Source: Lymnaea stagnalis (Eukaryota). From it: a DNA stretch of 23,559 nucleotides. The stretch is from contig CAXITT010000282.1 of assembly GCA_964033795.1 (NCBI GenBank), positions 484,790 through 508,348 on the forward strand, read 5' to 3'. Made by a program: the position numbers and the translations under genes. Below are positions 196 through 20,659 of this stretch, one piece after another; positions within the stretch are counted from its first letter, which is position 1; each line of letters begins with the position of its first letter. The notes under the pieces are model-generated. The model was not told where the DNA came from. It was given only the letters and a program-made list of their open reading frames with translations, and did not search any database.

Positions 196-357
196 TTTCG
201 GTTTCGGCTTCGGTTTCGGCCGAAATTCATTTTTAATATTCGGCCCTTTTTCGGTTTCGGCCGAAAGTCATTTTTAAACCTTCGGCCTTTTTTCGGTTTC
301 GGCCGAAAGTCATTTTAAACTTTCGGCCTATTTTCGGCTTCGGCCGAAATCAGAAAA
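196..357. repeat. About 44-bp tandem repeat (about 3.5 copies), each unit carrying the perfect 12-bp palindrome TTTCGGCCGAAA
   Basis: Direct reading: 'ttcggtttcggccgaaagtcatttttaaaccttcggcctttt' recurs with a period of about 44 bp. The palindrome can form a hairpin or cruciform. Confidence 0.8.
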
Positions 358-377
358 TCACTTTCGGTCGGTCTCTA

Positions 378-2083: not shown

Positions 2084-2164
2084 ATTCTGGACTGTCTTTG
2101 GAATCCCATCGTTCACGACGAGATGTTAATGCACTATGTATGGGTTATGAAAGAATGTCCTCAG
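2084..2164 (+). CDS. Candidate internal exon (81 nt) with a strong polypyrimidine/AG acceptor and a CAG|GTGAAT donor
   Basis: The acceptor 'ccgttttttttctcttttag' ends at 2083 and the donor 'gtgaat' starts at 2165. Two frames are open. The phase-1 frame gives ..SGLSLESHRSRRDVNALCMGYERMSS(G), and as a phase-1/phase-1 symmetric exon it matches the phase of the downstream candidate exons. Frame 0 gives ILDCLWNPIVHDEMLMHYVWVMKECPQ. Confidence 0.3.
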
Positions 2165-2350: not shown

Positions 2351-2792
2351 GGGGTGTCGAGTGTGCAAGAGTTTTGTAATTTTAAATTCACATTCTTTGA
2401 CATTCCTGATCTATCTGAAGTCTCTGACATACAACCTACGACAATACAGCGAGAATATGTTTTCATGTGACCCTTATGATTAAATAAGACAAAATATTTG
2501 TGGGGTTTTTTTTTGTTATTAATATTGCCTGTCGAACTCATGAATAACAAAATATGCTTTTGGGCACAATATGAAATGAATAATAATTATGAGTCGGTTC
2601 AAGTCTGCCACACAGCAAAAAGTCCGGCAAATTAGTGTAAACTCTTCTGAGATGGATTTCATTGCACTGTGGGAAGCAGCACCTGTTATAGCATATTAAA
2701 TATTTAAGTAGTATTTTTAGATTTGTCAATAGTTCAAAGAGGGAATGCATGATGGGTATTATTGAATGGGATGAATAAATCCACGGAGTGAA

Positions 2793-3290
2793 TGGGTTAA
2801 GTTTGGGCTTCCTGGGTTAAGTTTGGGCTTCCTGGGTTAAGTTTGGACTTCCTGGGTTAAGTTTGGGCTTCCTGGATTAAATTTGGGCTTCCTGGGTTAA
2901 TTTTTAAGCTTCCTGGGTTAAATCTGGGCTTTCTGGGTTAAGTTTGGGGCAGCCTCAATTAGCTTGGGTTTCCTGGGTTAAGTTTGGGACAGCCTTGGTT
3001 AGTTTTTAAATGCCTTGGTTAGTTTAGGCTGCCTCTGTGAGTTTGGGCAGCCTCGGTTAGTTTGGGCGTCCTCGGATAGTTTGGGCATCCTGGGTTAATT
3101 TGGGCAGCCTTGGTTAGTGTGGGCTGTCACAGTTAGTTTAGGCTGCCTCAATTAGCGTTTGACATTCTTGATTAGCCTCAGACAGGCTTAGTTAGCTTTG
3201 GACATCCTTGGTTAGCTTTGGATAGTAGCTGTTAGTTTTTTGTTTGTTTGCAGCCTCAGTTTTGGATAGCCTCAGATTGTTTTCAACAGC
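2793..3290. repeat. 19-20-bp minisatellite ('gggttaagtttgggcttcct' grading into 'gttagtttgggcagcctcg'), copy 1 of 3
   Basis: Tandem units read directly. The same array recurs at 8150-8645 and 9195-9470, each time immediately 5' of the cassette-exon block. Confidence 0.9.
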
Positions 3291-4640
3291 CTCTATAAAT
3301 ATTGGTTCCCATGTCATTTTTTGTTAGATTCACCAATATATACAAATATATTGCTATGATTCTTGGTAATATTAACAACATTAAAAGTGAAAACTTGTGT
3401 GGGTGAAAATCATTGTTAAGCAGACTGGTTAATGTCTTAGCAACATCCGTGCCCCTCGTTTCTGATTATAGTCTATAATATTCCTTTTTGTTTTGACAGA
3501 ATCAGCTGAGCAAGATATTGATTTTGATAGTTTATTGGAATCCTTGGATTATTCTTATGGTGAGAAAGCACCTTAATGGCTGGTTTTGTTTTCAGGTTTA
3601 GAATTGGAGTGCGCTCTATTTATATTTCAGTGGTTTCCAAACTGTTTATGTGTCACCAGGCCCTAGCTGCTTCTAGGTTTTTCCCAAAACACCATCTTTC
3701 AAGTGACTTAATAATAAACGAAATTAAGTTGATTATTATATATTTAAATTAATTTAAAACTGAGACAGTGCAAAACTGAAAGCTATTTATATATAAGCAC
3801 AAAGCATGAGAAACTGCTAACAAAATAGATAAAGTTATAAATTGAGTAGCCCCTGCTAGTATCCATTTGAAAAGGCTTTGCAAAACAGTTATTACAAAGT
3901 GAGTTACTAGTTTGTAATGAAAGCACTAAATATCATGTAACATTACCGGATGACATATTGAACCACTTTGGGGCACCCCTGTGAGAGAGAGCCGTGGCTT
4001 GCCAAAGCGTGCAGCTTAGGCACCTATCTTATATGTTTATACTTTTTCTATATCAACAGCTTTATAAAAGGGAACAGGTACAAAAATGAAAAGTAATAAC
4101 CATAAGGAAACTCTTGACTTTGCAATCAGGAGTTCACTGTACACCATGTGTACACCAGAAAAATATCTATTTGGAAAACAAATTGATTGCATCAAACCCA
4201 TTCAAAATTTCAAATTATTCCGTCCGTTGCGGAGCAATAACCCATCCCCATAACAAAGGCACAGAGCTTGTCATTAGTTAAAACTTAATTATAGTTATTT
4301 CTAGACTCTAGACTCCCAAATTGAACAGAATTGACATGTACATTTGTAAAGGCAAAATAACCAAGTGTCTAATTATAAAAATAAATCTAACTAAAACAAT
4401 GTCATTTAATTCTGAAATTACTGTATCCTTAAAATTTCTTCATCTATACAAAATTGAATTACCAAGTCACAATCTTATCTAATCATAAATTTAATAAATT
4501 TCTTTAAAAAAAAATTGAAGTGTTACAACTGTGTAAATAATAAAATTGGGGTGCAAATGCAGAAAAATTTGATCAACTTACAAAAGAAGGCATACAAATT
4601 CTTTGAAACTTTTCATTAAATTAATTCTCAAGTGGATTAT
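3290..4640 (+). repeat. Cassette-exon-bearing duplicated block, copy 1 (full length, about 1.35 kb)
   Basis: It aligns colinearly with 9470-10800 (full) and 8650-9215 (5' part only) at roughly 85-90% identity. Confidence 0.85.
3500..3559 (+). CDS. Candidate 60-nt phase-1 symmetric cassette exon, copy 1 (..E-SAEQDIDFDSLLESLDYSY-G..)
   Basis: Acceptor 'ttcctttttgttttgacag' and donor 'GTGAGA'. Both the phase-1 and phase-0 frames are open; phase 1 was chosen because it is the phase the strong acceptor at 16100 (E6) requires of the preceding exon. The exon and its splice sites are conserved in all three duplicated copies. Confidence 0.35.
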
Positions 4641-4807
4641 CGGTACTTCAATTTTAATTCACTGCAAAAATTATTAATATTCACACTTTCGATAAAACAA
4701 ACGTTCTTTTGCATTAAAACATATTTACTTCTTTTATTAAAGTCTTCCGCAAATGTGGTGGCCAAATTTGAACAATATCGTCTGTCAAAAAAATTATGAA
4801 GATCTCC

Positions 4808-6440
4808 TTTAGCCAGCTCATAAGCTGACCATGCCACTTTTCCCCTGAAATCTTAGCTCTATATTAGTATATGCAGTACTCATTGTTCAGCATCTGACAG
4901 GATAGAGGTAATCCCTCTGAAAATCTCTCTGGTTACACTACCAAGCCTGGGTCAGATACTTTGTGAAGAATTACCCCTTTAATCCCCAGTGTACTATGAC
5001 TGGAAGGCGAGACATATGCTGGTAAATCATATCCTACTGATCTTAGTCATTGCCATCTGATTTTTCACTCATCTTCTTCCTTAGGCCACATATTATCTCC
5101 TGTTGCAAAGAGTATGTCACCCTGTTCTGAGTGGTCCTCACAAAGTTATTGGAATTTTTCACAAGTTTTTAAAGAACCTTTAAAAGACAAAGATACACAT
5201 CTACTGCATAACATCCCTACACAAACATTTTTAAAAATATAACTCCTCGAACTGTTACGTTAGCGTGATGTAGAAATAAAATACCGCAGCTATTGTTGTT
5301 GTCATAGTTTTGGGTTTGAAATGTTGCATGTTCCAATTGTGGCACACCGGGCAAATCTGTGACCACCAGGACTAATGGTATCTTTTGGTGTTGTACAACT
5401 TTAACAACTCTTAAAATGTCCTCCACCTCTAACGTTACATGTTTGAGAAAAGATGATACAATTGAAGCAAAGGCTGTAGTGATACAACCTTCTAATAATG
5501 ATTCAGCACCTGTTTTCTGACGAGGACTCGTGAGATTAAACAGGTGGAGCAATAAATAATTTACCATGGTGTCTGTCTTAAGCATCTGCATGTCTTACTC
5601 CTTATAATGAAGTCTGATCCATGTGCAGATGATGCATCATCTCAAGATTTCTTCCTTGATGATGTTCTACTAACTTCAACGGAGGAGCAAGCACCCATGA
5701 AAAAGAGCAAGAAAGGGAAAAAAATTTATGGCATGGGGATAAAGTTGGACTCAACTGCACAACCCCCAGCAGGTAGAGTGACAGAACCACTAAACCATTT
5801 TCTTCTTTCTATCAACGCAGCGTAGCCAATTAAAACATTTTGTTTTTTTGAGTCTGAAGTGCTAATTTACAGGAAATACCACAGTAGAAAGTGGAACAAG
5901 AGAGGATGGGACTAGTTAGCCTTGGAAGGGAACTCATCTAAGAGAAGGCAAACTCTGAATTCAAACCAGGAGCCAAAATGATCAATAAATTGATCGTGGC
6001 CCCTCAAAAATAAAGGGCTCTGCGTTTTAGGTGTCCTAAAAGTGGGAGCGGCTGCTGTTTTCTTGTTCAAGTGCAAGATGGATGTACAATTTTTTTCAGA
6101 CAATTTCCTCCGGAAAGGGTGGGAATTTCAGATTTCCGGGTGAGCAGTGCCAGTTGCATAGCTAAGGGTGGGGGGAACAGAAGGGACAAATGTGTCCAGG
6201 CGGCAGACTATTCGGGATGCGAAAATAGAGCTTTTTAATGGGTTTCAGAGTTGGGGGGAGGTGGGATAAAAATGAATCTTGTCCCCTGATGCCCTAACAC
6301 TCCAGCTGCCACTCTGCTAGTGGTGTAAAAAGGGGGTTGGGCATGGATGGGCTGGTCCACCTAGGTTTTTCTTTATATGGAGCGGCAGCATGATCGGACA
6401 ACTGCAGAGTTTGTATCATGAAAGGTGAGTGGGCCAAAAA
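4808..6440. repeat. Segmentally duplicated block R, copy A (about 1.6 kb)
   Basis: Colinear with 11216-12935. It contains one copy of a 50-bp motif (5325-5380) that is expanded sixfold in copy B. No TIRs or TSDs are discernible, so it is treated as part of the tandem segmental duplication, not as a transposon. Confidence 0.8.
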
Positions 6441-7539
6441 TCTTAAGTATGTGAAGGACTTCACTTCTTCCAGTGCCTTTCTTGCCAGAGAGATATGCTA
6501 TTGTTTGGCTGAGTTTACCTTCATGATCATTGTCTTGTTTCATTTATATTGAGTCTGAGCTGTGCTGAAATGGAGAATACGTCTTTCATCTTTTCCTGTA
6601 TTTGTTGCTGGTTGTGGGACAGAAGAAGTGCTACATCATATGCATAGTCTAGGACATTCAGTTGTTTACAGTTTCCCAGAGTGTGCACTGTATCCCGTTC
6701 CTCTTTTTGTCTGTGGATTTTTTCATTATCCAATCAATGGTGAGGATGAATAGGAAAAGGGACAAGAGACATCCCTTCAGTGTCCACTTTAAAGTCATCA
6801 GTGAGTCTACATTCGTGGACCACCCTGCAAAGGTGGTTTTGTATCGTGTTATTAAAGTCTTTAAAACTTGTAAAGTTTGCAAAAAATAAATAATCGAGAA
6901 TACTGATATGTGCGAATTATACAGATAATCAAATTTATTGAGTGCAGCGATATTTCATAGGCTCCAATAATTGTAATTGGTTCAAGGCACCAGTTACTAT
7001 TATTTTTAAAAACATAAAAATAACAATTGCTCTATTTTTTACAAATAAAATATAGTTTCTTTTTATTGTTATAAATTTGTCTTTTTGTGGGGTGGGGTGG
7101 GGGAGTGGGGGCACTTGACTTTCCGTGGGGGAGCCCGGAAAGATTCCTGAAAGTGACACTGAGTGGAATCACTTAACAAGAGTGCATAGAGTTAGAGAAA
7201 TATATCCTACCTAGTTCACATATTCTCTCTGATGGATAGATGGAAGGTTTATGCCAAAATAAATCATATTCATATTAAACATGGAATCTACCAACACTCC
7301 ATTTAGGTATGTCAACAAAACTGCTGCAACCCAAATGATGCTTGCACTGGTGTTCACACAAAGAATGCATAAACTATATCGATGAGCAAGAAACGCAAAC
7401 TGAAAAGATAGTTAGGCATTAGCCACACATCTATCACTTCTTATTCCCTTCATTGTTACTTCAGGGAAAATCTATGATAAACTCAAGCTCTGTTAGCCGA
7501 GATATTATGTTCTTTTCATACATTAAGTTGTTACAATTG

Positions 7540-8135
7540 TTTCTAGTTTTAAAATGTTGTTTTGGCAGGAATATGTGCTAAAATGAATGTGTACAATGAA
7601 ATTAAAAATGTTTGCATTTCATTAGATTAATAGAAGAATCTAATCATATAAAAAGAATAACCTGATAGAATATAGCTCTTCAGACCCAAAAACTACAATT
7701 TGTGAATAGCAGCTGCCGAAGTGCTAGATTAACTTTTTTTCATTTTAACATTAACTCCCACAGAAATTCTTAAACTGAGTGATGATGCCAATTTCATGTA
7801 AGTCTTAGCTTAACTAGTTTTTGAATTCTATTATTTTCTGATAAGTTTGGTCTCAATTCCTGGAAGGCGTATGTTCACTGACCTGATGACAGATGTCCAT
7901 ACTGCACATGTTGGTGGTGCCATGAGACTTGACCGTGTTGATACTATATTTTCTTACTTGCTTGATGCTGACAGTGCAAATTTGGACACAGTGGTCATGT
8001 TTCCCAAGTTTCAGCATCTCATAAACAATCTCGATGAAGTGCATGAAATTCATTTTAAATAAAACATTTCCGCTTTGATGAATCTATGGCTCATCACTTT
8101 GGTCGTCATGGGTGCAGAGAAAGTATTTGGCTAGT
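7540..8135. repeat. Segmentally duplicated block S, copy A
   Basis: Colinear with 13140-13690 at roughly 93% identity. Both copies carry a 71-codon TTG-initiated ORF, but 6 of 8 substitutions between copies are nonsynonymous, so it is not scored as coding. Confidence 0.8.
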
Positions 8136-8149
8136 TTTTTACAGCATTT

Positions 8150-8645
8150 GTTTTTTGGGGCAGCATCGGTTAGTTTGGGCAGCTTCGGTTAGTTTTGGCA
8201 TTCTTGGTTAGTTTGGTTAGTTTGGGCATCCTCTTGGTTAGTTTGGGCATCTTCAGTTTGGGAGCCTCGGTTAGTTTGGGCATTGTTAGTTAGTTTGGGC
8301 ATTGTTAGTTAGTTTGGGCATCGTTAGTTAGTTTGGGCATCCTCTTGGTTAGTTCGGGCATCTTCAGTTTGGGAAGCCTCGGTTAGTTTGGGTAGCCTCG
8401 GTTAGTTTGGGTAGTCTCGATTAGTTTGGGTAGCCTTGGCTAGTTTGGGCATTGTTAGTTAGTTTGGGCAGCCTCAATTACTTTGAACAGCCTATATAAA
8501 TTTGGGTAGCCTTGCTTAGTTTGGGCATCCTCAATTCGTGTGCGACATTCTTGATTAACCTCGGAACGCCTTGGTTAGTTTTGGACAACTTTGGTTAACT
8601 TTGGAGAGCAGCTGTTAGTTTTTTTTTTTTTTTTGCAGCCTCAGT
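8150..8645. repeat. 19-20-bp 'gttagtttgggc...' minisatellite, copy 2
   Basis: Same unit family as 2793-3290. It ends in a T15 run at 8618-8635. Confidence 0.9.
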
Positions 8646-8875
8646 TTTGGATAGCCTCAGATAATTTTGAACAGGCCCTATAAATTCACCAATAAATTTA
8701 GATTCACCATTGTGTACTAATTTTGCTGTGGTTCTTTGCAATATTAACAACATTAAAAGTGAATACTCGTGTGGGTTGAAAGTCATTGTTAAGGAGACAG
8801 TTTAATGTCTTAGCAACATCTGTGCCCCTGACTTCTGATAATCATTTCTAATATTCCTTTTTTTGTTGTTGACAG

Positions 8876-8938
8876 AATCAGCTGAGCCAGATATTGATTT
8901 ATTTAGTGAGACTCAAGCTTTTCAATCCTTGGATGATG
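8876..8938 (+). CDS. Candidate 63-nt phase-1 symmetric cassette exon, copy 2 (..E-SAEPDIDLFSETQAFQSLDD-G..)
   Basis: Acceptor 'ttcctttttttgttgttgacag' and donor 'GTGAGA'. The frame is open and the length difference from copy 1 is +3 nt. Confidence 0.35.
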
Positions 8939-9194
8939 GTGAGAAAGCACCTTAATGGCTCAAAACAGCGGGTTTAGAATGGGAGTGTGCTCTATTTATA
9001 TGTCGGGGTCTCCAAACTGTTTTCGTGTCCCCAGCCCCTTTCTGCATCTAGGTTTTTCCCAAAACACCACCTTTCAAGTGACTTAATAATAAACGATATT
9101 AACTTGATAAATATGTTTAAATGAATTTAAAACTTGAGCAGTGCAAAACTGACAGCTTTTTATATATAAGATACAAAGCTTGAGAAACTGTTAA

Positions 9195-9470
9195 ACAAAT
9201 TTGTCTCAGTTAGTTTTGGGCATTCTGGGTAAGTTTCGGGAGCCTCGGTTATTTTGGGCATCCTAGGTTAGAATGGATAGTTTGGGCATTCTCTGTTAGT
9301 TTGGGCAGCCTCTGTTAGTTTTGGCTGCCACAATTAGCATTGAACATCCTTGATTAGCCTCGGACAGGCTTAGTTAGTTTTGGACATCCTTGATTAGCTT
9401 TGGATAGCAGCTGTTAGTTGCTTTTTTTCAGCCTCAGTTTTGTATAGCCCCAGATAGTTTTGAACAGCCT
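9195..9470. repeat. 19-20-bp minisatellite, copy 3 (short)
   Basis: It follows the truncated cassette block 8650-9215 directly and precedes the full cassette block 9470-10800. Confidence 0.85.
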
Positions 9471-9676
9471 CTATAAATTTTGGTTCCCGTGTCATTTTTG
9501 TTAGATTCACCAATATGTATAAATATATTGCTATGAGTCTTTTCAATATTAACAACATTAAAAGTAAATACTCGTGTGGGGTGAAAGTTAATTTTAAGCA
9601 GCCAGGTTAATGTCTTAGCAACATCTGTGCCCCTGGTTTTTTATGATAGTTTCGAATGTTCCTTTTTTTTGGACAG

Positions 9677-9739
9677 AATCAGCTGAGCCAGATATTTATT
9701 TATGTAGAGAGACGAAAGCTTTTCAATCCTTGGATGATG
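9677..9739 (+). CDS. Candidate 63-nt phase-1 symmetric cassette exon, copy 3 (..E-SAEPDIYLCRETKAFQSLDD-G..)
   Basis: Acceptor 'cctttttttt..ggacag' and donor 'GTAAGA'. The frame is open. Compared with copy 2 there are 4 nonsynonymous and 1 synonymous changes, so there is no sign of purifying selection and this copy may be decaying. Confidence 0.28.
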
Positions 9740-10988
9740 GTAAGAAAGCAACTTAATGGCTCCAAATAGCCACCTGGTCTAATGTTGGCTTTAAAATGGG
9801 AGTGTGCTCTATTTATATGTCAGAGGTTTCTAAACTGTTTTAGTGTCACCTGGCCCTTGCTGCTTCTAGGGTTTTCCCAAAACACCAACTTTCAATTGAC
9901 TTAATAATGAACGATATTAAGTTGATAAATATATGTTTAAATTAATTTAAAACTTGAACAGTGCAAAACTGATAGATATTTATATACAAGACACAAGGCT
10001 TGAGAAACTGCTAAACAAAATTGATAAAGTTATAAATGGCGTAGCCCCTGCTTGTATCCATTTGAAAAGGCTATGGCTAACAGTTATTACAAAGTGAGTT
10101 ACTAGTTTGTACCGAATCCACTAAATGTCATGTAATATTACAGGATGACATTTTTTAACACTTGGCGGCACCCCTGTGAGGAAGCCCTGGCTTTCCACAG
10201 TGTGCATTTTAGGAACCTATCTTATATGTTTAAGCTTTTTCTAGAGCAATGGCTTTATAAAAGTTAAAGGGAACAGGTACGAAAATGAAAAGTAACAACC
10301 GTAAGGAAACTCTTGTTATTGCAATCTGGAGTTCACTGTACACCATGGGTACACAAGAAAAATAGCTATTTGGAAAACAAATTGATTGCATCAACCCCAT
10401 TCAAAATTTCAAATAATTCCGTCTGTCTGTCGGGGAGCAATAACACATCCCCATAACAAAGGCACAGAGCTTGTTATAGTTATTTCTAGACTCCCATATT
10501 TAACAGCATTGACATGTATATTTGTAATGGCGAAATGAAACCAAGTGTCTAATTATGATGTAAAGCTAACTAAAACAATGTCATTTAATTCTGAAATTTC
10601 TATAACCTTACAATTTCTTCACTTATACAAAATCATAAATGAATTACCAAGTCAAAATCTAATTATAAATTTAATTAAAAATTTAAAAAATTGAAGCTTT
10701 ACAACTGTTTAAATAATAAAATTGCGGTGCATTTGCAGACAAATTTGATCAACTTACAAAAGAAGGCATAATAATTCTTCAAAACTTTTCTTTGCATTAT
10801 TTCCTAATGAATCTTTCATACTGGTACTCACACGGATACTCATTCAGATACTCATTCATTCTAATGGCTGCTTAAGCAGGACAAGTGGGTCATCATATCT
10901 GTAGTGTCTGAATGTATTTGTTAGTTTAGTTTATCTAAAAAAATCTGTTCAGATCATTGATGAAAAAAATGTTGAACATATTTTTCAG

Positions 10989-11036
10989 ATAAGCAAAAGA
11001 CATCAAGATTAGCAAAGACATCAGCAGAAGAGGAAG
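10989..11036 (+). CDS. Candidate 48-nt phase-1 symmetric exon (..D-KQKTSRLAKTSAEEE-G..)
   Basis: Acceptor 'atatttttcag' and donor GAAG|GTACAG. Only the phase-1 frame is open; the other two hit TAA/TAG. It has no counterpart in duplication copy A. Confidence 0.3.
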
Positions 11037-11215
11037 GTACAGTAGAGAAGCATGCTTGCATATTTTAACTCTCTTTAAGTTCCTGAATAAATATGTTTTA
11101 GATTAAAATGATAGGTCAAATAATATTTTACAGATTGTATGTGTAAGTTTTGGCATCATTGGGTTTGAACCAATTATTGCAATTACTGCAGACACACGCT
11201 CTATAAAGCCTGTTA

Positions 11216-12935
11216 GACCACTCATAAGCTGACCATGCCACTTTTCCCTGAAATCTTAGCTCTATATTAGTATATGCAGTACTCATTGTTCAGCATCTGA
11301 GATGATAGAGGTAATACCTCTGAAAATCTCTCTGGTTACGGTACCAAGCCTGGGTCAGATATTTGCTGAAGAATTAACCCATTTACCCCCATTGTTCCAT
11401 GACTGGAAGGCTAGACATGTACTGGTAATTTATATCCTACTTATCTTGGTCATTGCCATACGATTTTTTCACACATCTGCTTCCTTAGGCTATAAATTAT
11501 CTCCTGGTGCAAAGATTGGTCATCCTGTTCTAAGTGGTCCTCAAAAAGTGATGGGAATTTTTCTCACATTTTTTAAGCACCATTCAAAGACAAAGAGATA
11601 CACATCCACTGCATTACATCCCTACACTAACATTAAAAAAATATAACCCCTTGAACCGTTATGTTATAGTGAAAAAAAATAAAACACATCAGTTATTATT
11701 GTTGTCATAGTTTTGGATTTGAAACTTTGCATGTTCCAAATTTGGCACACCGGGCAAATCTGTTATCACCAGAATGTTGCATGTTCCAATTTGGGCACAC
11801 CGGGCAAATCTGTTACCACCAGAATGTTGCATGTTCCAATTGTGGCACACCAGACTAAATCTGTGACCACCAGAATGTTGCATGTTCCAATTGTGGCACA
11901 CCAGGCAAATCTGTGACCACCAGAATGTTGCATGTTCCAATTGTGGCACACCGGCCAAATCTGTGACCACCAGAATGTTGCATGTTCCAATTGTGGCACA
12001 CCAGGCAAATCTGTGACCACAAGGACTAATGGTATCTTTTGGTGTTGTACAACTTTAACAACTCTGAAAATGTCCTCCACCTCTAACGTTACATGTTTGA
12101 GAAAGATGACACAATTGAAGCAAAGGCTGTAGTGATGCAACCTTCTGATGACGATTCAGCACTTTTTTTTCTGATGAGGACTCGTGAGATTAAACAGGTT
12201 TACAGGAGATATAGCAGGTGCAACAATAAATAATTTACCATGTGCCTGTCTTAAGCACCTGCATGTCTTATTCCTTATAATGAAGTCTGATCCATGTGCA
12301 GATGATGCGTCATATGCAGCTCAAGATTTCTTCCTTGATGATGTTCTGCAAATTTCTAACAGATGGATAAAGGCTGACCAAACTGCACAACCTCCAGCAG
12401 GTAGAGTTACTGAACCACTAAATCATTTTGTTCTTTCTATCAATTGGGCGTAGCCAATTAAAACATTGTGTTTTTTTAGTCTTAAGTGCTATTTTACAGG
12501 AAATACCACAGTACAAAAAGGAAGAAGGGGCTCTGGGTTTTAGGTTGCCTAAAAAGAGGGAGTGGCTGCTGTTTTCTTATCAAGTGCTAGACAGACGTGC
12601 GATTTATTTCAGACAATTTCCTCGTTAAGAGGGTGAATTTCATATTTTCGGGTTAGCAGTGCCAGTTGCATAGCTGAGGGTGTGGGCTCAGAAGGGACAA
12701 ATGTGTCCAGGCGACAGACTACCGGGTATACCAAAATGGGCTTTTTAATGGGTTTCAGGAGTTTGTGGGGGGGGGGATAAAAATGAATCTTGTCCCCTGG
12801 CGCCAAACACTCCAGCTGCCACTCTGCTAGTGGCGTAAAAAGGGGGGTGGGCATTGATGGGCTGGTCCACCCAGGTTTTTCTTTATATGGAGCGGCAGCA
12901 TGATCAGACAACTGCAGAGTTTGTATCATGAGAGG
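11216..12935. repeat. Segmentally duplicated block R, copy B
   Basis: Colinear with 4808-6440 and offset by about 6.4 kb. Confidence 0.8.
11727..12022. repeat. About 50-bp tandem repeat, roughly 6 units ('gttgcatgttccaattgtggcacaccaggcaaatctgtgaccaccagaat')
   Basis: Units read directly. The orthologous position in copy A (5325-5380) has a single unit, so this is a copy-specific expansion. Confidence 0.9.
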
Positions 12936-13139
12936 TGAAGGGGGCGAAAATTTTGGCCCGCCTGTTGGGGCACTTCAACTAGCTACGTCACTAGGCAGTG
13001 TGACCATCAGCACCAAAATTGGTCATCATTTTTATTGGGAAATAGGGCTGATACCGAGGGCTCCGATTGCTCTTGTGTTGAAGATTGGCATGATACTGTA
13101 TTCTTATCTTAAAAAGATTAATTAAAAAAACAATTAATT

Positions 13140-13690
13140 GATAAAACAATTGTTGTTTTGGCAAGAATATGTGCTAAAATGAATGTGTACAATCAATTAT
13201 AGAAAAAATTTAATTGGATTAATAGAAGAATATTATCAATAAAAGATAGAGACCCAAAAAACCACGATTTGTGAATAGCAGGTGCCAAAGTGTTGGATTA
13301 GCTTTTTTAATTTTAATATTAACTCTCACAGAAATTCTTAAGCTGTTTCTGGATGACGATGCCAATGTCATGTAAATCTTGGCTTAACTAGCTCTGAATT
13401 CCAATATTTTCTGATAAGTTTGGTCTCAATTCCTGGAAGGCGCATGTTCACTGACCTGATGACAGATGTCCATAATGCACATGTTGGTGGTTCCATGAGA
13501 CTTGACCGTATTGATACTTTATTGTCTTACTTGCATGATGCTGACAGTGCAAATTTGGACACAGTGGTCATGTTTCCTAAGTTTCAGCATCTCATAAACA
13601 ATCTCGATGAAGTGCATGAAATTCATTTTAAATAAAACATTTCAGCTTTGATGAATCTAGGGCTCATCACTGGTCGTCATGGGTGCAAAC
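13140..13690. repeat. Segmentally duplicated block S, copy B
   Basis: Colinear with 7540-8135. Confidence 0.8.
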
Positions 13691-14077
13691 AATATAATTG
13701 GGGAAAGCCCATAGTATAGGGTTTGGTTTATGCTTTTCCGTGGTACAACGTGCCTGGGCAAAATATGTTTTTTTCAGCCATATCACGGTAAACATTGTTT
13801 GTGCATCATTTCTCCTTCAGTTGAGAGAAGAACACCCTTGGACAATACCATTTTGCACTTCATAACCTTTTCTCAAGTTTTGCACTTCTTGATAAGCTTA
13901 GTTCAATGGGACGTTAGGGAAAATGCAGCAGTATCAGTGGATTTGGCTAGTGTTCCATTTTTGCAACACCACATAACTCAACAATGGTCACCGTTCCCTT
14001 CAAATTCTTCCTATGTGAATTTTATGTAACCTTCATGAATTTAATACAAAAAATAAATAAAATACAATGTGCAGCAT

Positions 14078-14400
14078 AAATGGGTAAACTGTTGTCGAAG
14101 CGGCAGATTCCCCTGTTTTCGAAGCGGCAGATTCCGCTGTTGTCCAAGCAGCAGATTCCCCTGTTGTCCAAGCGGCAGATTCCCCTGTTGTCCAAGAAGC
14201 AGATTCCCCTGTTGTCGAAGCAGCAGATTCCGCTGTTGTCCAAGTGACAGATTCCGCTGTTGTCCAAGCGGCAGATTCCCCTGTTGTCCAAGAAGCAGAT
14301 GCCCCTGTTGTCGAAGCGGCAGATTCCGCTGTTGTCCAAGTGACAGATTCCGCTGTTGTCCAAGCGGCAGATTCCCCTGTTGTCCAAGAGGCAGATCCCT
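14078..14400. repeat. 24-bp GC-rich minisatellite, about 13 units of 'ccaagcggcagattcccctgttgt' and variants
   Basis: Perfect 24-bp periodicity. It is open in all six frames, which explains track ORFs 14022-14387, 14033-14452 and 14069-14410. Confidence 0.9.
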
Positions 14401-14687
14401 CCTGATCTAGGCTAAAAGATTGATATAAAAATACCATGTACATCAAACCCATAAGCTATGTCTGGCAGCTTAGTTTGGCCATGTACCATGTATTCTTACT
14501 ATATATTTCAGTTTCAGTTTACGCATTTGATGTTTCCTCACATGAAAAGGAAAGAAAGGCTGCATCAGCAGCTGTTGACCAATCAGATCATTGTAGGACT
14601 TCAGTAACATATGAAGATCAGGAAAAAGATCAGGAATCATCAACGTGGTCAAATAATATGTGTAAAAAAAAATTTTCCTTCTTGATT

Positions 14688-15515
14688 TTTTTTTTTTTTT
14701 ACCTTATATCAGTTTCTTTACCTTATAACAAAATTAGAAAAATCAGCACCATTAGACACCTCCTCTCCTTTGATGCCACAAAAACTCTCGTCTCTTCACT
14801 CATTCTTTCAAAATTTGACTACTGTAACACGCTTCTCGCAGGCATACCTCAACACCACATAAACAAACTTCAGAAGGCACAGAACTCAGCATGCAGACTC
14901 ATTTTTTAAATCAAAGAAACATGACCACATTCAACCACACATGCGGCAACTCCACTGGCTTCCAATATCCTCTCGCATCAAGTACAAGTCTGCCAATCTA
15001 TGCTTCAACTCGTTCACTGACCCTCACTTTCCTGTCTATCTCTCTGAACTATTGCTTCCTTACATCCCCACAAGACAACTACGCTCTTTCATTGACAATA
15101 GAACCCTCTCAATCCCAAGAACCAAAACTAAGACCATCGGTGAACGCTCCTTCTACTTCCATGGGCCCACGTTCTGGAGCCAGCTCCCCTTCCATATCCG
15201 TCATTGTGAAACTTCGTCCACTTTCAAAAAGTCCCTTAAAACCCATCTGTTTAGGTCTGCCTATGACCTGTGATGCACCCTCCTTGCCCTGCCTCATTTT
15301 TTGTCTCAGGTTGATCCTGTATAATAGGCCAAAACTTGCCAAAGTGTCCCCGTTTTATAGCCATTTTAATTGTTTCTATAGTATAATAGTTACTATCCTA
15401 GTGTCTCATTTTTATTTTACTTAGTTTACATGTTTTTAATAATTGTAAAGCGCTTAGAGCTTTAAGGTAAGCGCTATATAAAAATGCCTAAATAAATAAA
15501 TAAATAAATAAATAA
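14688..15515 (+). mobile_element. Decayed non-LTR-type retroelement fragment carrying the widespread metazoan 'DYCN...LHWLP...LKTHLF' ORF, with a 5' T-run and a 3' (AAAT)6 tail
   Basis: Translation across two frames gives ..RKISTIRHLLSFDATKTLVSSLILSKFDYCNTLLAGIPQHHINKLQKAQNSACRLIF* followed by a frameshift to ..QLHWLPISSRIKYKSANLCFNSFTDPHFPVYLSELLLPYIPTRQLRSFIDNRTLSIPRTKTKTIGERSFYFHGPTFWSQLPFHIRHCETSSTFKKSLKTHLFRSAYDL*. This motif set occurs as an interspersed-repeat ORF in many fish and invertebrate genomes. The 3' end is 'ctaaataaataaataaataaataaataa' (15490-15515) and the 5' boundary is approximate. Confidence 0.6.
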
Positions 15516-15774: not shown

Positions 15775-16030
15775 ACACATGACTACCCGCATCCACAACA
15801 TGCACCAGCACCACACCTGACTACACTAGCACCACACCTGACTGCACCAGCACCACACCTGACTGCACCAGCACCACACATGACTGCATCCACAACATGC
15901 ACCATCACCACACCTGACTGCACCAGCACCACACCTGACTGCCCGCATACACAACATCACCAGCACCAAGCCTGACTGCACCAGCAGCACACCTGACTGC
16001 ACCAGCACTACACCTGAATGCACCAGAACC
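15775..16030. repeat. 24-bp minisatellite, about 10 units of 'caccacacctgactgcaccagcac', immediately upstream of the big exon's acceptor
   Basis: Read directly. It generates track ORFs 15739-15975(+) and 15826-16032(-). Confidence 0.9.
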
Positions 16031-16100
16031 ACATGCTTACCTTAATGTTACTCCTTCACATATTAAACTTAGATTACATTAATTGTTTTCCTTTTAACAG

Positions 16101-17383
16101 ATAAGTCGTTGGTCGGTGTGAGGGAAAAGAGCCAAGACCGGATTTACAGACCAGCATTTGCGAAGTCAAAAGCCAGTTATAAACCACCATCCCTCGCGGC
16201 CAGCCTCACTCAACGATCTCAAATTCTTCCAACACAGACTTCTTCTCCAATGAGTTATATGTCACCACTTCAAACTCGGGCCAGCTGCTCACTTGAAATT
16301 GCCCCACCGCCACTTAGAAGCACCTTGGCTACACTACCACTTAATATTCACGTTCCACCACCACCACCACCACCTGGAGGTGGTCCCCCACCACCACCAC
16401 CATCTGGAAGTTGCCCTCCTCCACCACCACCACCTGGATTTTGTCCCCCTCCACCAACAGCTAGAATGTGGGCCCTTCCACCACCACCTTCTGCAGGTTT
16501 TGGTTTTGTTCTACCTGCGCCTGGTAGTGTTGCTCCAGGTTTTGGTTCTGAGCCTCCTTCAGCTGGTAGTTTTGCTCCACGTTTTGGTGGTGGTCCTCCT
16601 ACAGCTGGTAGTTTTGTTCCAAGTTTTGGTGATGGTCCTCCTACAGCTGGTAGTTTTGTTCCAAGTTTTGGTGGTGGTCCTACAGCTGGTAGTTTTGTTC
16701 CAAGTTTTGGTGGTGGTCCTCCTACAGCTGGTAGTATTGCTCTAAATTTTGGTTCTGAGCCTCCTACAGCTGGTAGTTTTGCTCCAAGTTTTGGTTCTGG
16801 TCCTCCTACAGTTGGTAGTTTTGCTTTAGGTTTTGGTTCTGGTCCTCCTACAGTTGGAAGTACTGCTCCATGTTTTGGTGGTGGTCTTCCTACAGTTGGT
16901 AGTATTTTTCCAGGTTTTAAAGCTGGTCCTCCTACAGTTGGTAGTTTTGCTTCATGTTTTGGTTCTGGTCCACCTACAGCTCGTGGTACTGCTTTAGGTT
17001 TTGGTTCTAGTCCTCCTACAGCTAATAGTATTGCTCTAGATTTTGGTTCTGGTCCTCCTACAGCTGATAGTACTGCTTCAGGTTTTGGTTATGGTCCTAC
17101 TGCAGTTGTTAGTGTTGCTTCAATTTTTGCTGGTAGGTCTTCAAGTGATAATTCTGACAGTGAACTTGAGGAAAGTGATAGTTTTTCAGTGTATCAACAA
17201 TCTCCTCCTGAGGTGATAGACTTAGCTCATCAGACCTGTGGCGAGAAGACACCAGAAAAAGGTTTACCCAGCAGTGAGCCTCTGTTCACCTTTGGTATCG
17301 GAGCAAAGTTGACGAGCATAAGAACAAGGGAAGACACCCTTAAAAGTGAGGACTTGGTCAAACTGATGGAGCTCCAACAAAAG
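16101..17383 (+). CDS. Large internal exon of a proline-rich, FG-repeat, low-complexity protein. The N-terminal part is serine/threonine-rich. It is followed by FH1-like polyproline tracts (16357-16462), then about 14 tandem 15-aa repeats 'GGGPPTAGSFVPSFG' (16490-17130), then an acidic serine-rich segment and a heptad-like tail 'DLVKLMELQQK'.
   Basis: A 435-codon open frame (track ORF 16109-17416, whose 'start' is TTG). It is entered through the strong acceptor 'ttgttttccttttaacag' ending at 16100, in phase 1; the in-frame TAG at 16070 lies upstream of the acceptor. The 45-bp DNA repeats stay in frame, including one 42-bp unit, which shows the indels are triplet-constrained. The exon either exits at the AAG|GTGCGT donor at 17383/17384 in phase 0 or runs on to the TAG at 17414-17416. 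Confidence 0.7.
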
Positions 17384-17439
17384 GTGCGTCTGCTGAGGCT
17401 AGAATCTTTGGTATAGTCTTATTTCAATGAGGGTGCATA

Positions 17440-17640
17440 CCGACAGACTTGTAAAGCTTTAATTACCGCCTAACTACCGATAGACTTATAAAGCTTTAAC
17501 TAACAGGAAAATTACAGATAGACTTATAAAGATTTAAATAGGGGCTAATTGCCGATAGACCTTTAAAGCCTTAACTACAGACTAATTACAGATAGACTTT
17601 TAAAGCTGTAAATACAGGCTAATTGCCGACAGCAGAGAAA
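17440..17640. repeat. About 44-bp AT-rich tandem repeat ('ctaattaccgatagacttataaagctttaa...'), roughly 4.5 units
   Basis: Read directly. It lies immediately 3' of the big exon. Confidence 0.8.
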
Positions 17641-17939
17641 CTTTAAATACATGCTGAGTATGAGGGGTCGAACTGAGACAAATCTTGTAATACAGCCTGC
17701 TGAACCTGATCTAAAGTTGAGATTAAGGTGTCTGTATTGGTCTGACTCTGGGTGTAATGGCTCCTGCACTGTGTTCCTTGTGATCTCGAACTTTAAGTCA
17801 TTTCAAAAATTATTATTCCATTAAATTTCAAATTGGTCTTTCAAATGAATAGAATTTCAAATAAGTCCATGTTTAGTAAAAATTGCTTCTTTCCTTTTAT
17901 TTTTTCATCAAAGGTGATAGAGGAAGTCCTGAGGTAGCC

Positions 17940-18400
17940 CACAGCCAGTTTTAGACTAACAGAAAGCATTCCTTACACTTTCTACTAGACTAACACAAGC
18001 ATTCTTAATCATTTTATCATGGACAAACACAATCATTCCTTTTTTACTTTCTACTAGACCAGTGTTTCTCAACCTTCCTAACGCCATGACCCTTTAATGC
18101 AATGCCTCATGTTATGGTGACCTGAATCATAAAATTATTTTCAACGCTTCTTCATATATATGTGTTTTCCGATCGTCTTAGGCGAGCCCTGTGTAAGGGT
18201 TTTTTCAACCTCCAAAGGGGTAATGACCCATAGGTTGAGAACCACTGTACTAGAATAACCCAATCATTCCTTTTTATTTTCTAACAGACAAACCCAATTA
18301 TTCTTAAATTACTTTCTGAAGGACCAACCCAATGATGCTAAAATTACTTTCTCTAGGACGAACCCAATTATTATAAAATTACTTTCTCAATCATTCATAA
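17940..18400. repeat. Degenerate tandem repeats of about 55-60 bp ('..caatcattcctttttactttctactagac..')
   Basis: The array is interrupted by the MITE at 18060-18247. Confidence 0.7.
18060..18247. mobile_element. hAT-like MITE (188 bp) with 15-bp terminal inverted repeats CAGTGTTTCTCAACC / GGTTGAGAACCACTG and an 8-bp target-site duplication TACTAGAC / TACTAGAA
   Basis: The TIRs match at 14 of 15 positions. The flanking 8-mers are 18052-18059 and 18248-18255, and an 8-bp TSD with a CAGTG.. terminus is the hAT signature. The element sits in one unit of the surrounding tandem repeat, and there is no internal ORF. Confidence 0.65.
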
Positions 18401-19188: not shown

Positions 19189-19288
19189 GATGGTGGCTGG
19201 AATTTGAATTCAGAGCTGGATCAGTTAATCGGGATTGACAGTGCTGCACTGGAGGCCATCTTATACAGCAGTGGACTCTCATCATTGG
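19189..19288 (+). CDS. Candidate 100-nt exon (DGGWNLNSELDQLIGIDSAALEAILYSSGLSSL-G), phase 0 in and phase 1 out
   Basis: Acceptor 'tttttctgtatcttccag' and donor GG|GTAATT. Only one frame is open. Its phase-0 entry matches the phase-0 donor at 17383, and its phase-1 exit matches the entry of the 20313 exon. Confidence 0.5.
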
Positions 19289-20312: not shown

Positions 20313-20659
20313 GGGCAACTGCCGAAGGAAAAATTAGGAGCTATTTGGCAATGCTGTTGGTTCTTTTCTCCTTCCTGGAACTCGTACATTTTGATGTTGA
20401 TGTAGAAAAGTTTGTCTCCAAACATTTTTCTGAAGATGACATAATAGCTCTAGGCTCAAAATTAGAGCTGGCAGTGGAAGCGTGTGAGTGGGATGAAGAC
20501 CAGCTACATGCCTTATCTGAAGCTTTTGAAAAGATGTTTAAGTTTCATGATGAGTTTACCTCCAGACATCCACTTGTTTACAGCACCCTGGAGCTGGGCA
20601 AGAGCTGGGCAGATGTAGTCAACAAGCTCATGACACCACCAGGCTATTTCTTTCTTTAG
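20313..20659 (+). CDS. Candidate terminal coding exon (G-ATAEGKIRSYLAMLLVLFSFLELVHFDVDVEKFVSKHFSEDDIIALGSKLELAVEACEWDEDQLHALSEAFEKMFKFHDEFTSRHPLVYSTLELGKSWADVVNKLMTPPGYFFL*)
   Basis: The acceptor 'ttcataaaatttatacag' ends at 20312. The open frame (track ORF 20345-20659, TTG 'start') extends back to the acceptor in phase 1, and the G left over from 19288 plus GG gives Gly. It ends at a TAA at 20657-20659. An ATTAAA poly(A)-signal variant lies at about 20762. Confidence 0.5.

What the first reader, a model, noticed from the sequence alone, without database searches (positions are those of the whole stretch)
2793..13690. About 6.4-kb tandem segmental duplication that triplicated a small acidic cassette exon together with its 5' minisatellite
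The order [19-20-bp minisatellite -> 1.35-kb cassette block -> block R -> block S] occurs twice. Block R is offset 4808 to 11216 and block S 7540 to 13140. An extra truncated minisatellite-plus-cassette copy sits at 8150-9215, which gives three cassette exons.

All three keep the acceptor, the GT donor, an open frame and a length that is a multiple of 3.

Two caveats. Exon divergence between copies is about the same as intron divergence, and copy 2 vs copy 3 shows 4 nonsynonymous changes to 1 synonymous. So these may be recently duplicated, relaxed exons, or pseudo-exons. The recurrent minisatellite directly 5' of each cassette suggests it mediated the unequal crossover.

Copy A carries an extra roughly 0.9-kb insert (about 6440-7540) that is absent from B.
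Basis: seen in the sequence. Interest (0 to 1): 0.6.

Follow-up and report, generated by a model that had tools for sequence, protein, structure and literature searches.

The report
Old tandem duplication inside a mollusc gene
A stretch of about 5 kb inside a mollusc gene was duplicated head to tail long ago and then partly duplicated again, giving three copies of a tiny possible exon; the duplication is real, but it is an ordinary kind of event and nothing here shows that the exon copies are used.

Summary
Self-BLAST shows two colinear head-to-tail units, A (2792-8146) and B (8147-13701), at 75-86% identity. B carries a nested tandem duplication of about 808 bp (8397-9204 | 9205-10023). The result is three copies of a 19-20-bp minisatellite, each followed by a 60/63-nt open frame (3500-3559, 8876-8938, 9677-9739) with a good acceptor and GT donor.

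Divergence of K about 0.15-0.18 and copy-private indels rule out an assembly artefact.

The region lies in a + strand gene. Its three 3' exons (16101-17383, 19189-19288, 20313-20659) encode a repeat-rich protein ending in a PARP4-type vault-interaction (MINT) domain. The closest relatives are gastropod proteins, and the Aplysia gene shares the 3' exon structure.

All three cassettes are phase 1-1 and join the phase-1 big exon in frame. Their exon status remains unproven:
- splice-plus-ORF candidates arise by chance at an appreciable rate;
- pN/pS for copies 2 and 3 is about 1;
- nothing in the duplicated region is conserved with Aplysia;
- no transcripts are available.

Minisatellite-mediated unequal crossover is not supported. 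No array follows unit B, and the nested junction shows AGTTA microhomology. This is an ordinary intragenic tandem duplication with a candidate triplicated exon.

The parts
2792..8146 (+). Duplication unit A: minisatellite, cassette block, blocks R, an A-specific 1.1-kb segment, block S
   Evidence: Colinear self-BLAST blocks against unit B; identity profile
8147..13701 (+). Duplication unit B, head to tail after A; contains the nested 808-bp duplication
   Evidence: junction sequences
8397..9204 (+). First copy of the nested tandem duplication (3' part of the minisatellite plus the first ~600 nt of the cassette block; holds cassette 2)
   Evidence: 8397-9203 ~ 9205-10023 at 78.7%, offset 808; AGTTA microhomology at the junction
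9205..10023 (+). Second copy of the nested tandem duplication (holds cassette 3); continues into the full cassette block of unit B
2793..3220 (+). 19-20-bp minisatellite, array 1 (20-bp variant TGGGTTAAGTTTGGGCTTCC, then 19-bp GGTTAGTTTGGGCAGCCTC)
   Evidence: TRF; repeat families D3/D8; pattern search
8147..8605 (+). Minisatellite array 2
9205..9404 (+). Minisatellite array 3; lacks the 5' ~240 nt of the array, consistent with the nested-duplication breakpoint
3500..3559 (+). Candidate cassette exon 1, 60 nt, phase 1-1, (E)SAEQDIDFDSLLESLDYSY
   Evidence: Sequence; alignment; splice/ORF scan
8876..8938 (+). Candidate cassette exon 2, 63 nt, phase 1-1, (E)SAEPDIDLFSETQAFQSLDD
9677..9739 (+). 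Candidate cassette exon 3, 63 nt, phase 1-1, (E)SAEPDIYLCRETKAFQSLDD
6445..7551 (-). A-specific 1107-nt segment (B has 193 unrelated nt here); contains a decayed reverse-transcriptase fragment on the minus strand (~6450-6900)
   Evidence: RVT_1 E = 4.9e-4, 20.3 bits, below the 29.6-bit cut-off
11727..12020 (+). 50-bp tandem array (5.9 copies) in unit B; only one unit in A (5320-5369), so it expanded after the duplication or was lost from A
   Evidence: TRF; overlapping BLAST blocks
7822..8098 (+). High-identity island (96%) shared with 13395-13671, in a background of about 85%
   Evidence: Family D13; binomial P = 2.8e-9
13395..13671 (+). Partner of the 96% island in unit B
2084..2164 (+). Independent candidate upstream exon, 81 nt, phase 1-1 (SGLSLESHRSRRDVNALCMGYERMSS); would join the cassettes or the big exon in frame
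   Evidence: Splice/ORF scan; sequence
16101..17383 (+). Confident large exon of the host gene (phase-1 acceptor, phase-0 donor): proline runs, then 15 x 42-bp coding repeat, then an acidic Ser-rich stretch
   Evidence: ORF; boundaries; homology of the spliced product; the equivalent 426-aa exon in Aplysia
19189..19288 (+). Confident 100-nt exon (DGGWNLNSELDQLIGIDSAALEAILYSSGLSSLG), start of the MINT-like domain
20313..20659 (+). Terminal coding exon, stop at 20657-20659; rest of the MINT-like domain

Best explanation
SHOWN. The region is a genuine, old, head-to-tail tandem duplication of an ancestral segment of roughly 4.3-4.7 kb. It lies inside the long intronic stretch upstream of the large 3' exon of a + strand, most likely molluscan, gene. 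That gene encodes a repeat-rich protein ending in a PARP4-type vault-interaction (MINT) domain.

The two units are A (2792-8146) and B (8147-13701). Inside B, an 808-bp piece was duplicated in tandem again (8397-9204 | 9205-10023). That piece comprises the 3' part of the minisatellite plus the first ~600 nt of the cassette block.

INFERRED (mechanism and history).
- The nested duplication arose by replication slippage or template switching at an AGTTA microhomology.
- The copies then diverged to K about 0.15-0.18.
- Unit A acquired a 1.1-kb segment containing a decayed reverse-transcriptase fragment.
- Unit B expanded a 50-bp minisatellite.
- Patches of 95-98% identity were probably homogenised by gene conversion.
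- The minisatellite is cargo, and possibly a fragile breakpoint, rather than a recombination substrate.

INFERRED, about even odds (exon status). Each of the three 0.8-kb copies carries a 60/63-nt phase 1-1 open frame with good splice signals, encoding an acidic peptide of about 20 aa. It is in frame with the next confident exon. It is therefore a candidate triplicated cassette exon that would add 0-3 acidic modules to a disordered region. The copies evolve as if unconstrained, so they may be weakly included, redundant or dead exons.
For: Duplication:
- Colinear blocks at 75-86% identity.
- Exactly three cassette cores, nhmmer E from 1e-121 to 1e-130 and nothing else.
- Minisatellite units only in the three arrays.
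- Junction sequences, including the AGTTA microhomology.
- Near-equal flank distances of 0.150-0.166 between the three copies, with the exon grouping copies 2 and 3.
- A-specific and B-specific segments and the RT fragment; the 50-bp array.
- Identity mosaic, P = 2.8e-9 for the 277-nt island.

Gene context:
- Three 3' exons with consistent phases.
- The spliced C-terminus hits gastropod proteins at E down to 4.9e-17, and true PARP4 proteins.
- The domain profile hits human PARP4 1574-1708 at E = 6.9e-16.
- Aplysia XP_005096629.2 has the same three-exon 3' structure.

Exon candidacy:
- Acceptor and donor retained in all three copies.
- Phase 1-1, matching the phase-1 acceptor of the big exon.
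- The net length difference between copies is 3 nt.
- In de-duplicated upstream sequence there are 2 independent phase 1-1 candidates against 0.25 expected, P(>=2) = 0.015.
- Aplysia exon 2 also starts in phase 1 with Ser...Ala-Glu-(x)-Asp and carries an amplified acidic motif.
Against: Against exon status:
- With my rough splice scoring, shuffled windows give about 4 splice-plus-ORF candidates per 23.5 kb. They give at least one phase 1-1 candidate in 22-33% of trials.
- pN/pS for copies 2 and 3 is 0.083/0.085.
- The exon is the least conserved part of the block between copies 1 and 3.
- BLASTP of the hypothetical spliced peptide against the two best homologues is not significant.
- tblastx finds nothing conserved with the Aplysia locus inside the duplicated region.
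- No same-species protein or transcript was found.

Against the nested-duplication order of events: flank distances do not clearly make copies 2 and 3 sisters. A three-unit array followed by a ~4.6-kb deletion would give the same map.
Confidence: 0.8

Rival explanations
1. Pure intron. The cassettes are pseudo-exons that are never spliced in. The duplication copied only non-coding sequence, and the splice-like signals and open frame are a chance feature of the ancestor that was copied three times.
For: The chance rate of such candidates is appreciable. pN/pS is about 1. The exon body is more diverged than its flanks for copy 1. There is no significant similarity to the homologues' N-terminal parts. 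The candidate exon 2084-2164 could splice directly to 16101 in frame.
Against: All three copies keep both splice sites after ~15% divergence, and their lengths differ by a multiple of 3. The phase matches the next confident exon. Two independent phase 1-1 candidates are more than chance predicts, P = 0.015. The acidic composition fits the disordered regions of this protein family, and Aplysia exon 2 begins in the same phase with a similar short motif.
Confidence: 0.45
2. Alternative history. There were originally three full tandem units. A single deletion of about 4.6 kb then removed everything from the middle of unit 2's cassette block through its R and S blocks and into the first ~240 nt of unit 3's minisatellite.
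For: The three copies are almost equidistant in their flanks, 0.150-0.166. That fits a near-simultaneous triplication. A deletion with the same AGTTA microhomology junction would give the same map.
Against: It needs one more event, or a larger one, than a nested 808-bp duplication. The exon sequence groups copies 2 and 3 (5/63 differences, against at least 10 plus indels to copy 1).
Confidence: 0.3
3. One reading: unequal crossover (non-allelic homologous recombination) between minisatellite arrays generated the duplication.
For: An array sits at the 5' edge of every copy, and one breakpoint of each event lies at or in an array.
Against: Recombination between two arrays flanking a segment leaves an array after the last unit. 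None exists after 13701, and no units occur outside the three arrays. The right-hand breakpoints (about 8128-8146 and 9204) lie in unique sequence.
Confidence: 0.12
4. Assembly artefact: one real unit was falsely expanded by the assembler.
Against: The copies differ at 14-25% of sites. They also carry private indels, a private 1.1-kb segment and a private 50-bp array. Artefactual duplications are near-identical.
Confidence: 0.02
5. The minisatellite plus cassette is a mobile element that inserted three times independently.
For: Another minisatellite-bearing element occurs twice in the window, 3.5 kb apart, with shared flanks (19503-19910 and 23030-23558). Such elements may therefore move in this genome.
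Against: Blocks R and S are duplicated in the same order and orientation along with the cassette. Copies 2 and 3 abut exactly. No terminal repeats were seen.
Confidence: 0.03

Closest known systems
Tandem exon duplication / intragenic tandem segmental duplication in animal genes (reviewed in PMC9013439, which cites a 2002 survey reporting about 10% of animal genes with tandemly duplicated exons)
   Same: Adjacent same-strand copies of more than 1 kb carry a small exon-like unit with its splice sites. The unit is symmetric in phase and a multiple of 3 in length, so extra copies keep the reading frame.
   Different: Expression is unproven and there is no sign of purifying selection. The copies include several kb of intron, a minisatellite and transposon debris. 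A second, nested duplication produced the third copy.
Mutually exclusive exon clusters derived from tandem duplication (e.g. Dscam1; PMC1431710, PMC6071210)
   Same: An array of homologous small exons, each preceded by a similar upstream intronic sequence.
   Different: No enforcing mechanism was found. Exon lengths are multiples of 3, so joint inclusion stays in frame. The intron between cassettes 2 and 3 is 738 nt, so there is no steric block. No docking/selector complementarity was seen.
Aplysia californica XP_005096629.2 (auto-named 'POM121'), probable orthologue of the host gene
   Same: Same 3' exon structure and MINT-like C-terminus, 39% identity over the domain. Proline-rich and G/FG-type repeats in the large exon. 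An early phase-1 exon carries an acidic motif present three times (PAEDLISFSQ).
   Different: In Aplysia the motif was amplified as a 30-nt tandem repeat within one exon, 4.0 DNA copies starting just upstream of the acceptor. It was not amplified by kb-scale duplication of exon plus intron. Similarity of the motif to the window's cassettes is not statistically significant.
PARP4 (vault PARP) MINT / MVP-interaction domain (human residues 1562-1724; PMC12280208; PDB 9bw6, 9bw7)
   Same: The host gene's last two exons encode a domain whose family profile matches PARP4 1574-1708 at E = 6.9e-16.
   Different: The close relatives lack BRCT, PARP, VIT and VWA domains. Binding to the major vault protein is untested. 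This concerns the host gene, not the duplication itself.

Membership tests
Tandem segmental duplication | Two or more adjacent, same-orientation, colinear copies with similarity far above chance | tested here: met
   Five colinear blocks at 80-86% identity, E down to 0.0; nhmmer E of 1e-121 or lower for each cassette core
Tandem segmental duplication | Head-to-tail junction with the end of one unit abutting the start of the next | tested here: met
   Homology of A's end to B's end stops at ~8128/13699, and minisatellite array 2 starts at 8147. Copy 2 ends at 9204 and copy 3 starts at 9205
Tandem segmental duplication | Real in the genome rather than an assembly artefact | tested here: met
   Indirect but strong: 14-25% divergence, private indels, a private 1.1-kb segment and a private 50-bp array. 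No reads were available for a direct test
Tandemly duplicated cassette exons | Each copy has a 3' and a 5' splice site and an open frame; symmetric phase | tested here: met
   CAG acceptors after pyrimidine tracts, GTGAG/GTAAG donors, 60/63/63 nt, phase 1-1. The scoring matrix is my own rough metazoan consensus
Tandemly duplicated cassette exons | Located within a gene, on its coding strand, in frame with neighbouring exons | tested here: met
   The downstream exon 16101-17383 is confident and has a phase-1 acceptor. The upstream exon (2084-2164) is only predicted
Tandemly duplicated cassette exons | Inclusion in mature transcripts | not testable with these tools
   No transcript or protein from this species was found in the databases
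Tandemly duplicated cassette exons | Coding constraint (fewer nonsynonymous than synonymous changes; exon better conserved than intron) | tested here: not met
   pN 0.083 vs pS 0.085 for copies 2/3. Exon vs flank difference not significant, P = 0.18. Exon least conserved between copies 1/3. Power is low, at 60 nt
Tandemly duplicated cassette exons | Homologous exon in orthologues | tested here: inconclusive
   Aplysia exon 2 has the same phase and a similar start (S..AE.D), but BLASTP and tblastx are not significant
Mutually exclusive exon cluster | A mechanism enforcing one-of-N choice (frame incompatibility, steric hindrance, or docking/selector RNA pairing) | tested here: not met
   Lengths are multiples of 3. 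The intron between cassettes 2 and 3 is 738 nt. There is no reverse-complement match to the minisatellite unit and no meaningful inverted repeats
Minisatellite | Tandem array of 10-100-bp units, many copies | tested here: met
   TRF rows with periods of 19-20 bp: 16.9, 11.0 and 3.5 copies across array 1; 20.5 copies in array 2; about 3 copies each for two rows in array 3
Recombination between flanking repeats (NAHR) as the origin | Repeat present on both sides of the ancestral unit, hence also after the last copy | tested here: not met
   No minisatellite units after 13701 or anywhere outside the three arrays
PARP4 MINT-domain proteins (host gene) | Sequence homology to the PARP4 MVP-interaction domain | tested here: met
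   The spliced C-terminus hits PARP4-architecture proteins P0010 and P0012. The family profile hits human PARP4 1574-1708, E = 6.9e-16. PF26156 is precomputed on homologues P0004 and P0009
PARP4 MINT-domain proteins (host gene) | Direct Pfam match of the window's own protein to PF26156 | tested here: not met
   No Pfam family was reported for the window's C-terminus or for any member of alignment A3, including P0009, which carries the precomputed annotation. The local scan therefore appears unable to report this family
PARP4 MINT-domain proteins (host gene) | Binding to the major vault protein | not testable with these tools
   Requires biochemistry
Non-LTR retrotransposon insertion (A-specific segment) | Reverse-transcriptase domain | tested here: inconclusive
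   A stitched minus-strand translation hits RVT_1 at E = 4.9e-4, 20.3 bits against a 29.6-bit cut-off. The frame is broken by stops and shifts
Non-LTR retrotransposon insertion (A-specific segment) | Clean insertion with target-site duplication | tested here: not met
   B has 193 unrelated nt at the same position and no duplication was evident at the boundaries

The most novel reading that the evidence does not exclude
The three cassettes are real, independently includable exons. Each adds one acidic short linear motif of about 20 aa (SAE-x-DID-[LF]...SLD) to the disordered region of a protein delivered into vault particles by its MINT domain. Motif number would then be tunable by splicing. 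The same motif class would have been amplified to three copies independently in Aplysia by a different route, a 30-nt repeat that re-copies the acceptor. That would be convergent selection for motif dosage in a previously unrecognised family of vault cargo proteins.
Probability: 0.15. Interest if true: 0.45.

Novelty: new member of a known kind. Interest (0 to 1): 0.2.

Why it matters
As it stands, the finding is a well-documented example of how introns grow and how small symmetric exons can be multiplied. It shows a kb-scale tandem duplication, a nested re-duplication at a microhomology, later transposon and minisatellite changes, and patchy homogenisation.

It would matter more if transcripts showed variable inclusion of the three acidic modules. 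It would then illustrate copy-number tuning of a short linear motif in a disordered protein.

The more unusual by-product is the host gene. It belongs to a family known so far only from gastropod proteins, which carry a PARP4-type vault-interaction domain without any PARP, VIT or VWA domain. Its members are candidate natural cargo, or minor components, of vault particles.

Tried and rejected
1. Word-indexed protein searches failed to give close relatives. The repeat part of the big exon was swamped by low-complexity candidates and gave one spurious insect hit. The spliced C-terminus gave no hits. The domain alignment returned only its own members. Only the exhaustive HMMER search worked.

2. 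Pfam on individual ORFs and on the spliced C-terminus gave nothing meaningful.

3. Rfam and tRNA scans of the window found nothing.

4. I thought exon 2084-2164 resembled an internally duplicated segment of P0002, and that the cassette resembled Aplysia PAEDLISFSQ. BLASTP did not support either, so both are kept only as leads.

5. A small candidate exon in block S (7764-7797, 34 nt; 40 nt in B) was rejected. Its length shifts the phase from 1 to 2, which would put a stop in the following cassette, and the B copy fails the donor threshold.

6. The 71-aa ORF inside the 96% island (7847-8062 / 13420-13635) was rejected as a coding unit. There is no Pfam hit, the conservation runs past the ORF on both sides, and by eye most of the differences change the amino acid.

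7. No docking/selector-type complementarity for regulated exon choice was found.

8. The locus of the best homologue, P0002, is not on record.

9. DNA-level and tblastx comparison with the Aplysia locus found nothing inside the duplicated region.

Full report
**What the window is.** The sequence is AT-rich (about 30-47% G+C in 1-kb windows), full of minisatellites, and has no tRNA or Rfam matches. It looks like an invertebrate nuclear genome.

**Check of the observation.** A self-BLAST shows same-strand colinear blocks:
- 3030-4627 ~ 9202-10803 (81.6%)
- 4809-5369 ~ 11213-11772 (85.8%)
- 5320-5900 ~ 11974-12527 (79.8%)
- 6009-6444 ~ 12522-12954 (86.3%)
- 7552-8130 ~ 13148-13701 (85.0%)

A shorter copy, 8165-9200, matches both 2792-3826 (75.4%) and, as 8397-9203, 9205-10023 (78.7%). 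The 19-20-bp minisatellite forms arrays at 2793-3220, 8147-8605 and 9205-9404. Its 19-mer with up to 3 mismatches occurs 20 times against 0 expected, and only in those arrays. A DNA profile of the cassette core finds exactly three copies and nothing else.

There are two corrections. The A-specific segment is 1107 nt (6445-7551), and B has 193 unrelated nt at that position. The actual repeat period is 5355 bp (2792 to 8147), and the 6.2-6.6 kb offsets are inflated by later events.

**Anatomy.** The simplest map has two head-to-tail units, A = 2792-8146 and B = 8147-13701. Unit B contains a nested tandem duplication of 808 bp (8397-9204 | 9205-10023). This explains why array 2 aligns with array 1 from its very start while array 3 lacks the first ~240 nt.

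The junction of the nested copies reads ...AAACAAATTTGTCTC-AGTTA-GTTTTGGGC.... The cassette block has ...ATAAAGTTATAAA... at the equivalent point, and a minisatellite unit has ...GTTAGTTTGGGC. That leaves a 5-nt AGTTA microhomology.

Homology between the ends of A and B stops at about 8128/13699. The flank left of 2792 is unrelated to the A/B junction.

**Age and authenticity.** In ~600 nt of shared non-minisatellite sequence the three copies are almost equidistant: K2P is 0.166, 0.150 and 0.161 in the flanks. Across the units, gap-free identity is 83-89%. Each unit also has private features:
- the 1.1-kb segment in A, with a decayed reverse-transcriptase fragment on the minus strand;
- a 50-bp array of 5.9 copies in B, where A has one unit.

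Copies this different cannot be an assembly artefact.

Identity is patchy. Islands of 95-98% (about 4820-4910, 5340-5460, 6299-6389, 7822-8098) sit in a background of about 80%. The 277-nt island has 11 differences where about 41 are expected, P = 2.8e-9. The island extends beyond the 71-aa ORF it contains, and that ORF has no family match. I therefore attribute the patches to gene conversion between the units. This is an inference.

**Host gene.** On the + strand there are three exons with consistent splice phases:
- 16101-17383, acceptor ttttccttttaacAG, phase 1; donor AAG|GTGCGT, phase 0
- 19189-19288, 100 nt
- 20313-20659, stop at 20657-20659

The spliced C-terminus found nothing in the word-indexed searches. 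The exhaustive HMMER search gave 18 hits. The best are gastropod proteins:
- P0002, E = 4.9e-17
- Aplysia californica XP_005096629.2, E = 4.6e-16
- proteins from Plakobranchus, Elysia, Candidula and Haliotis

Weaker hits, P0010 and P0012, have the BRCT-PARP-VIT-VWA architecture of vault PARP.

A profile of the domain matches human PARP4 residues 1574-1708 in solved structures at E = 6.9e-16. That lies within the MINT domain (1562-1724), which docks PARP4 inside the vault cage (PMC12280208).

The Aplysia locus (L001) has the same 3' structure: a 426-aa exon, a 100-nt exon and a 111-aa terminal exon. The window therefore holds the 3' part of a probable orthologue, and the organism is most likely a mollusc.

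**Are the cassettes exons?**

Points in favour:
- All three keep a pyrimidine tract plus CAG acceptor and a GTGAG/GTAAG donor.
- They are 60, 63 and 63 nt, and are open in the frame that enters and leaves in phase 1. That is exactly the phase the big exon's acceptor needs, so any subset can be included in frame.
- Copy 1 differs from copies 2/3 by a net 3 nt.
- In de-duplicated sequence upstream of the big exon there are two independent phase 1-1 candidates, the cassette ancestor and 2084-2164. Only 0.25 are expected, with P(>=2) = 0.015.
- Aplysia exon 2 also begins in phase 1, with Ser-(Pro-Pro)-Ala-Glu-Asp, and carries an acidic motif three times.

Points against:
- My splice scoring is a rough consensus matrix. 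One confident donor (19289) scores only 0.37 under it, well below the 3.0 threshold.
- Shuffled sequence yields about 4 candidates per window, and at least one phase 1-1 candidate in 22-33% of trials.
- Copies 2 and 3 differ by 4 nonsynonymous and 1 synonymous change, pN 0.083 vs pS 0.085.
- The exon is not significantly better conserved than its flanks (5/63 vs 71/492, P = 0.18). Between copies 1 and 3 it is the least conserved part of the block.
- Neither BLASTP nor tblastx links the cassette to any homologue.
- No transcript data exist here.

I put the chance that at least one cassette is spliced into some transcripts at about one half.

**Mechanism.** The minisatellite is the 5' end of the duplicated unit, and one breakpoint of each event lies at or in it. 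But no array follows unit B, and the other breakpoints are in unique sequence. Recombination between two flanking arrays is therefore not supported. The AGTTA microhomology favours replication slippage or template switching for the nested event.

A three-unit array followed by a ~4.6-kb deletion would give the same map and cannot be excluded.

Nothing suggests regulated one-of-N exon choice. Lengths are multiples of 3, the intron between cassettes 2 and 3 is 738 nt, and no complementary docking sequence or inverted repeat was found.

**Comparison with what is known.** Tandem exon duplication and intragenic segmental duplication are common in animal genes (PMC9013439), and this is another instance.

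The Aplysia relative amplified its acidic motif differently. It has a 30-nt tandem repeat (4.0 copies, 11262-11381) that starts just upstream of the acceptor, and each unit ends in an acceptor-like TCTCACAG.

**Verdict.** The feature is real but ordinary, and the status of its exon copies is unresolved.

The host gene's family has a MINT domain without PARP, VIT or VWA domains. That is the more unusual thing seen, but it lies outside the finding itself.

Noticed in passing
window 16101-17383, 19189-19288, 20313-20659 (+): The host gene ends in a PARP4-type vault-interaction (MINT) domain: family profile vs human PARP4 1574-1708, E = 6.9e-16. Its closest relatives are gastropod proteins with no PARP, VIT or VWA domains (Aplysia XP_005096629.2 is auto-named 'POM121'; P0002 has an N-terminal ubiquitin-like domain). 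They are possible natural vault cargo or minor vault proteins.
   Followed up: partly
window 16354-17119 (+): The large exon holds proline runs (PPPPPPPGGGPPPPPP) followed by about 15 copies of a 42-bp coding repeat (14-aa units such as GFGSGPPTAGSFAPS). The Aplysia orthologue has analogous GGATFGS repeats in the equivalent exon (L001 15830-16053).
   Followed up: partly
window 7822-8098 and 13395-13671; also ~4820-4910, 5340-5460, 6299-6389 with their partners in unit B: Islands of 95-98% identity between the two units in a background of about 80% (P = 2.8e-9 for the 277-nt island). I attribute them to gene conversion, but conserved non-coding function is not excluded.
   Followed up: partly
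window 19503-19910 and 23030-23558: A second minisatellite-bearing element (13-bp unit GGAGTAGATGTTT with shared flanks, 80-82% identity) occurs twice, 3.5 kb apart. One copy is in the last intron and one lies downstream of the gene.
   Followed up: no
window 11727-12020 vs 5320-5369: A 50-bp tandem array (5.9 copies, 93% matches) in unit B corresponds to a single unit in A. The minisatellite was born or expanded after the duplication.
   Followed up: partly
window ~14700-15300 (+); L001 13962-14151 (-): A fragment resembling the C-terminal tail of a non-LTR retrotransposon protein (…LHWLPISSRIKYK…YLSELLLPYIPTRQLRS…; my reading, no Pfam support) lies in the intron before the big exon. A related fragment sits in an intron of the Aplysia gene (tblastx E = 4e-8).
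   Followed up: partly
window ~18059-18248: A MITE-like element of about 190 bp with terminal inverted repeats CAGTGTTTCTCAACC ... GGTTGAGAACCACTG.
   Followed up: no
window 21154-21500: A 174-bp unit duplicated in tandem at 99% identity. It is a very recent event downstream of the gene's stop codon.
   Followed up: no
window 2793-3220, 8147-8605, 9205-9404: The minisatellite unit GGTTAGTTTGGGCAGCCTC contains GGTTAG (a circular permutation of the TTAGGG telomere repeat) and a GGG run. The arrays end about 270-280 nt upstream of each cassette acceptor. Whether they influence splicing is unknown.
   Followed up: no
L001 11262-11381 (Aplysia): The 30-nt repeat encoding PAEDLISFSQ starts upstream of the exon 2 acceptor, and each unit ends in TCTCACAG. 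The repeat may therefore offer alternative in-frame 3' splice sites 30 nt apart.
   Followed up: partly
window 209-367, 1337-1799, 2309-2355, 14089-14404, 15801-16033, 17438-17655: Further tandem arrays: a 41-bp unit containing TTCGGCCGAA palindromes, a 16-bp unit CCCTGGTCACAATTAG, a G-rich run, and 24-bp, 21-bp and 37-bp units. Tandem-repeat density is unusually high throughout the locus.
   Followed up: no
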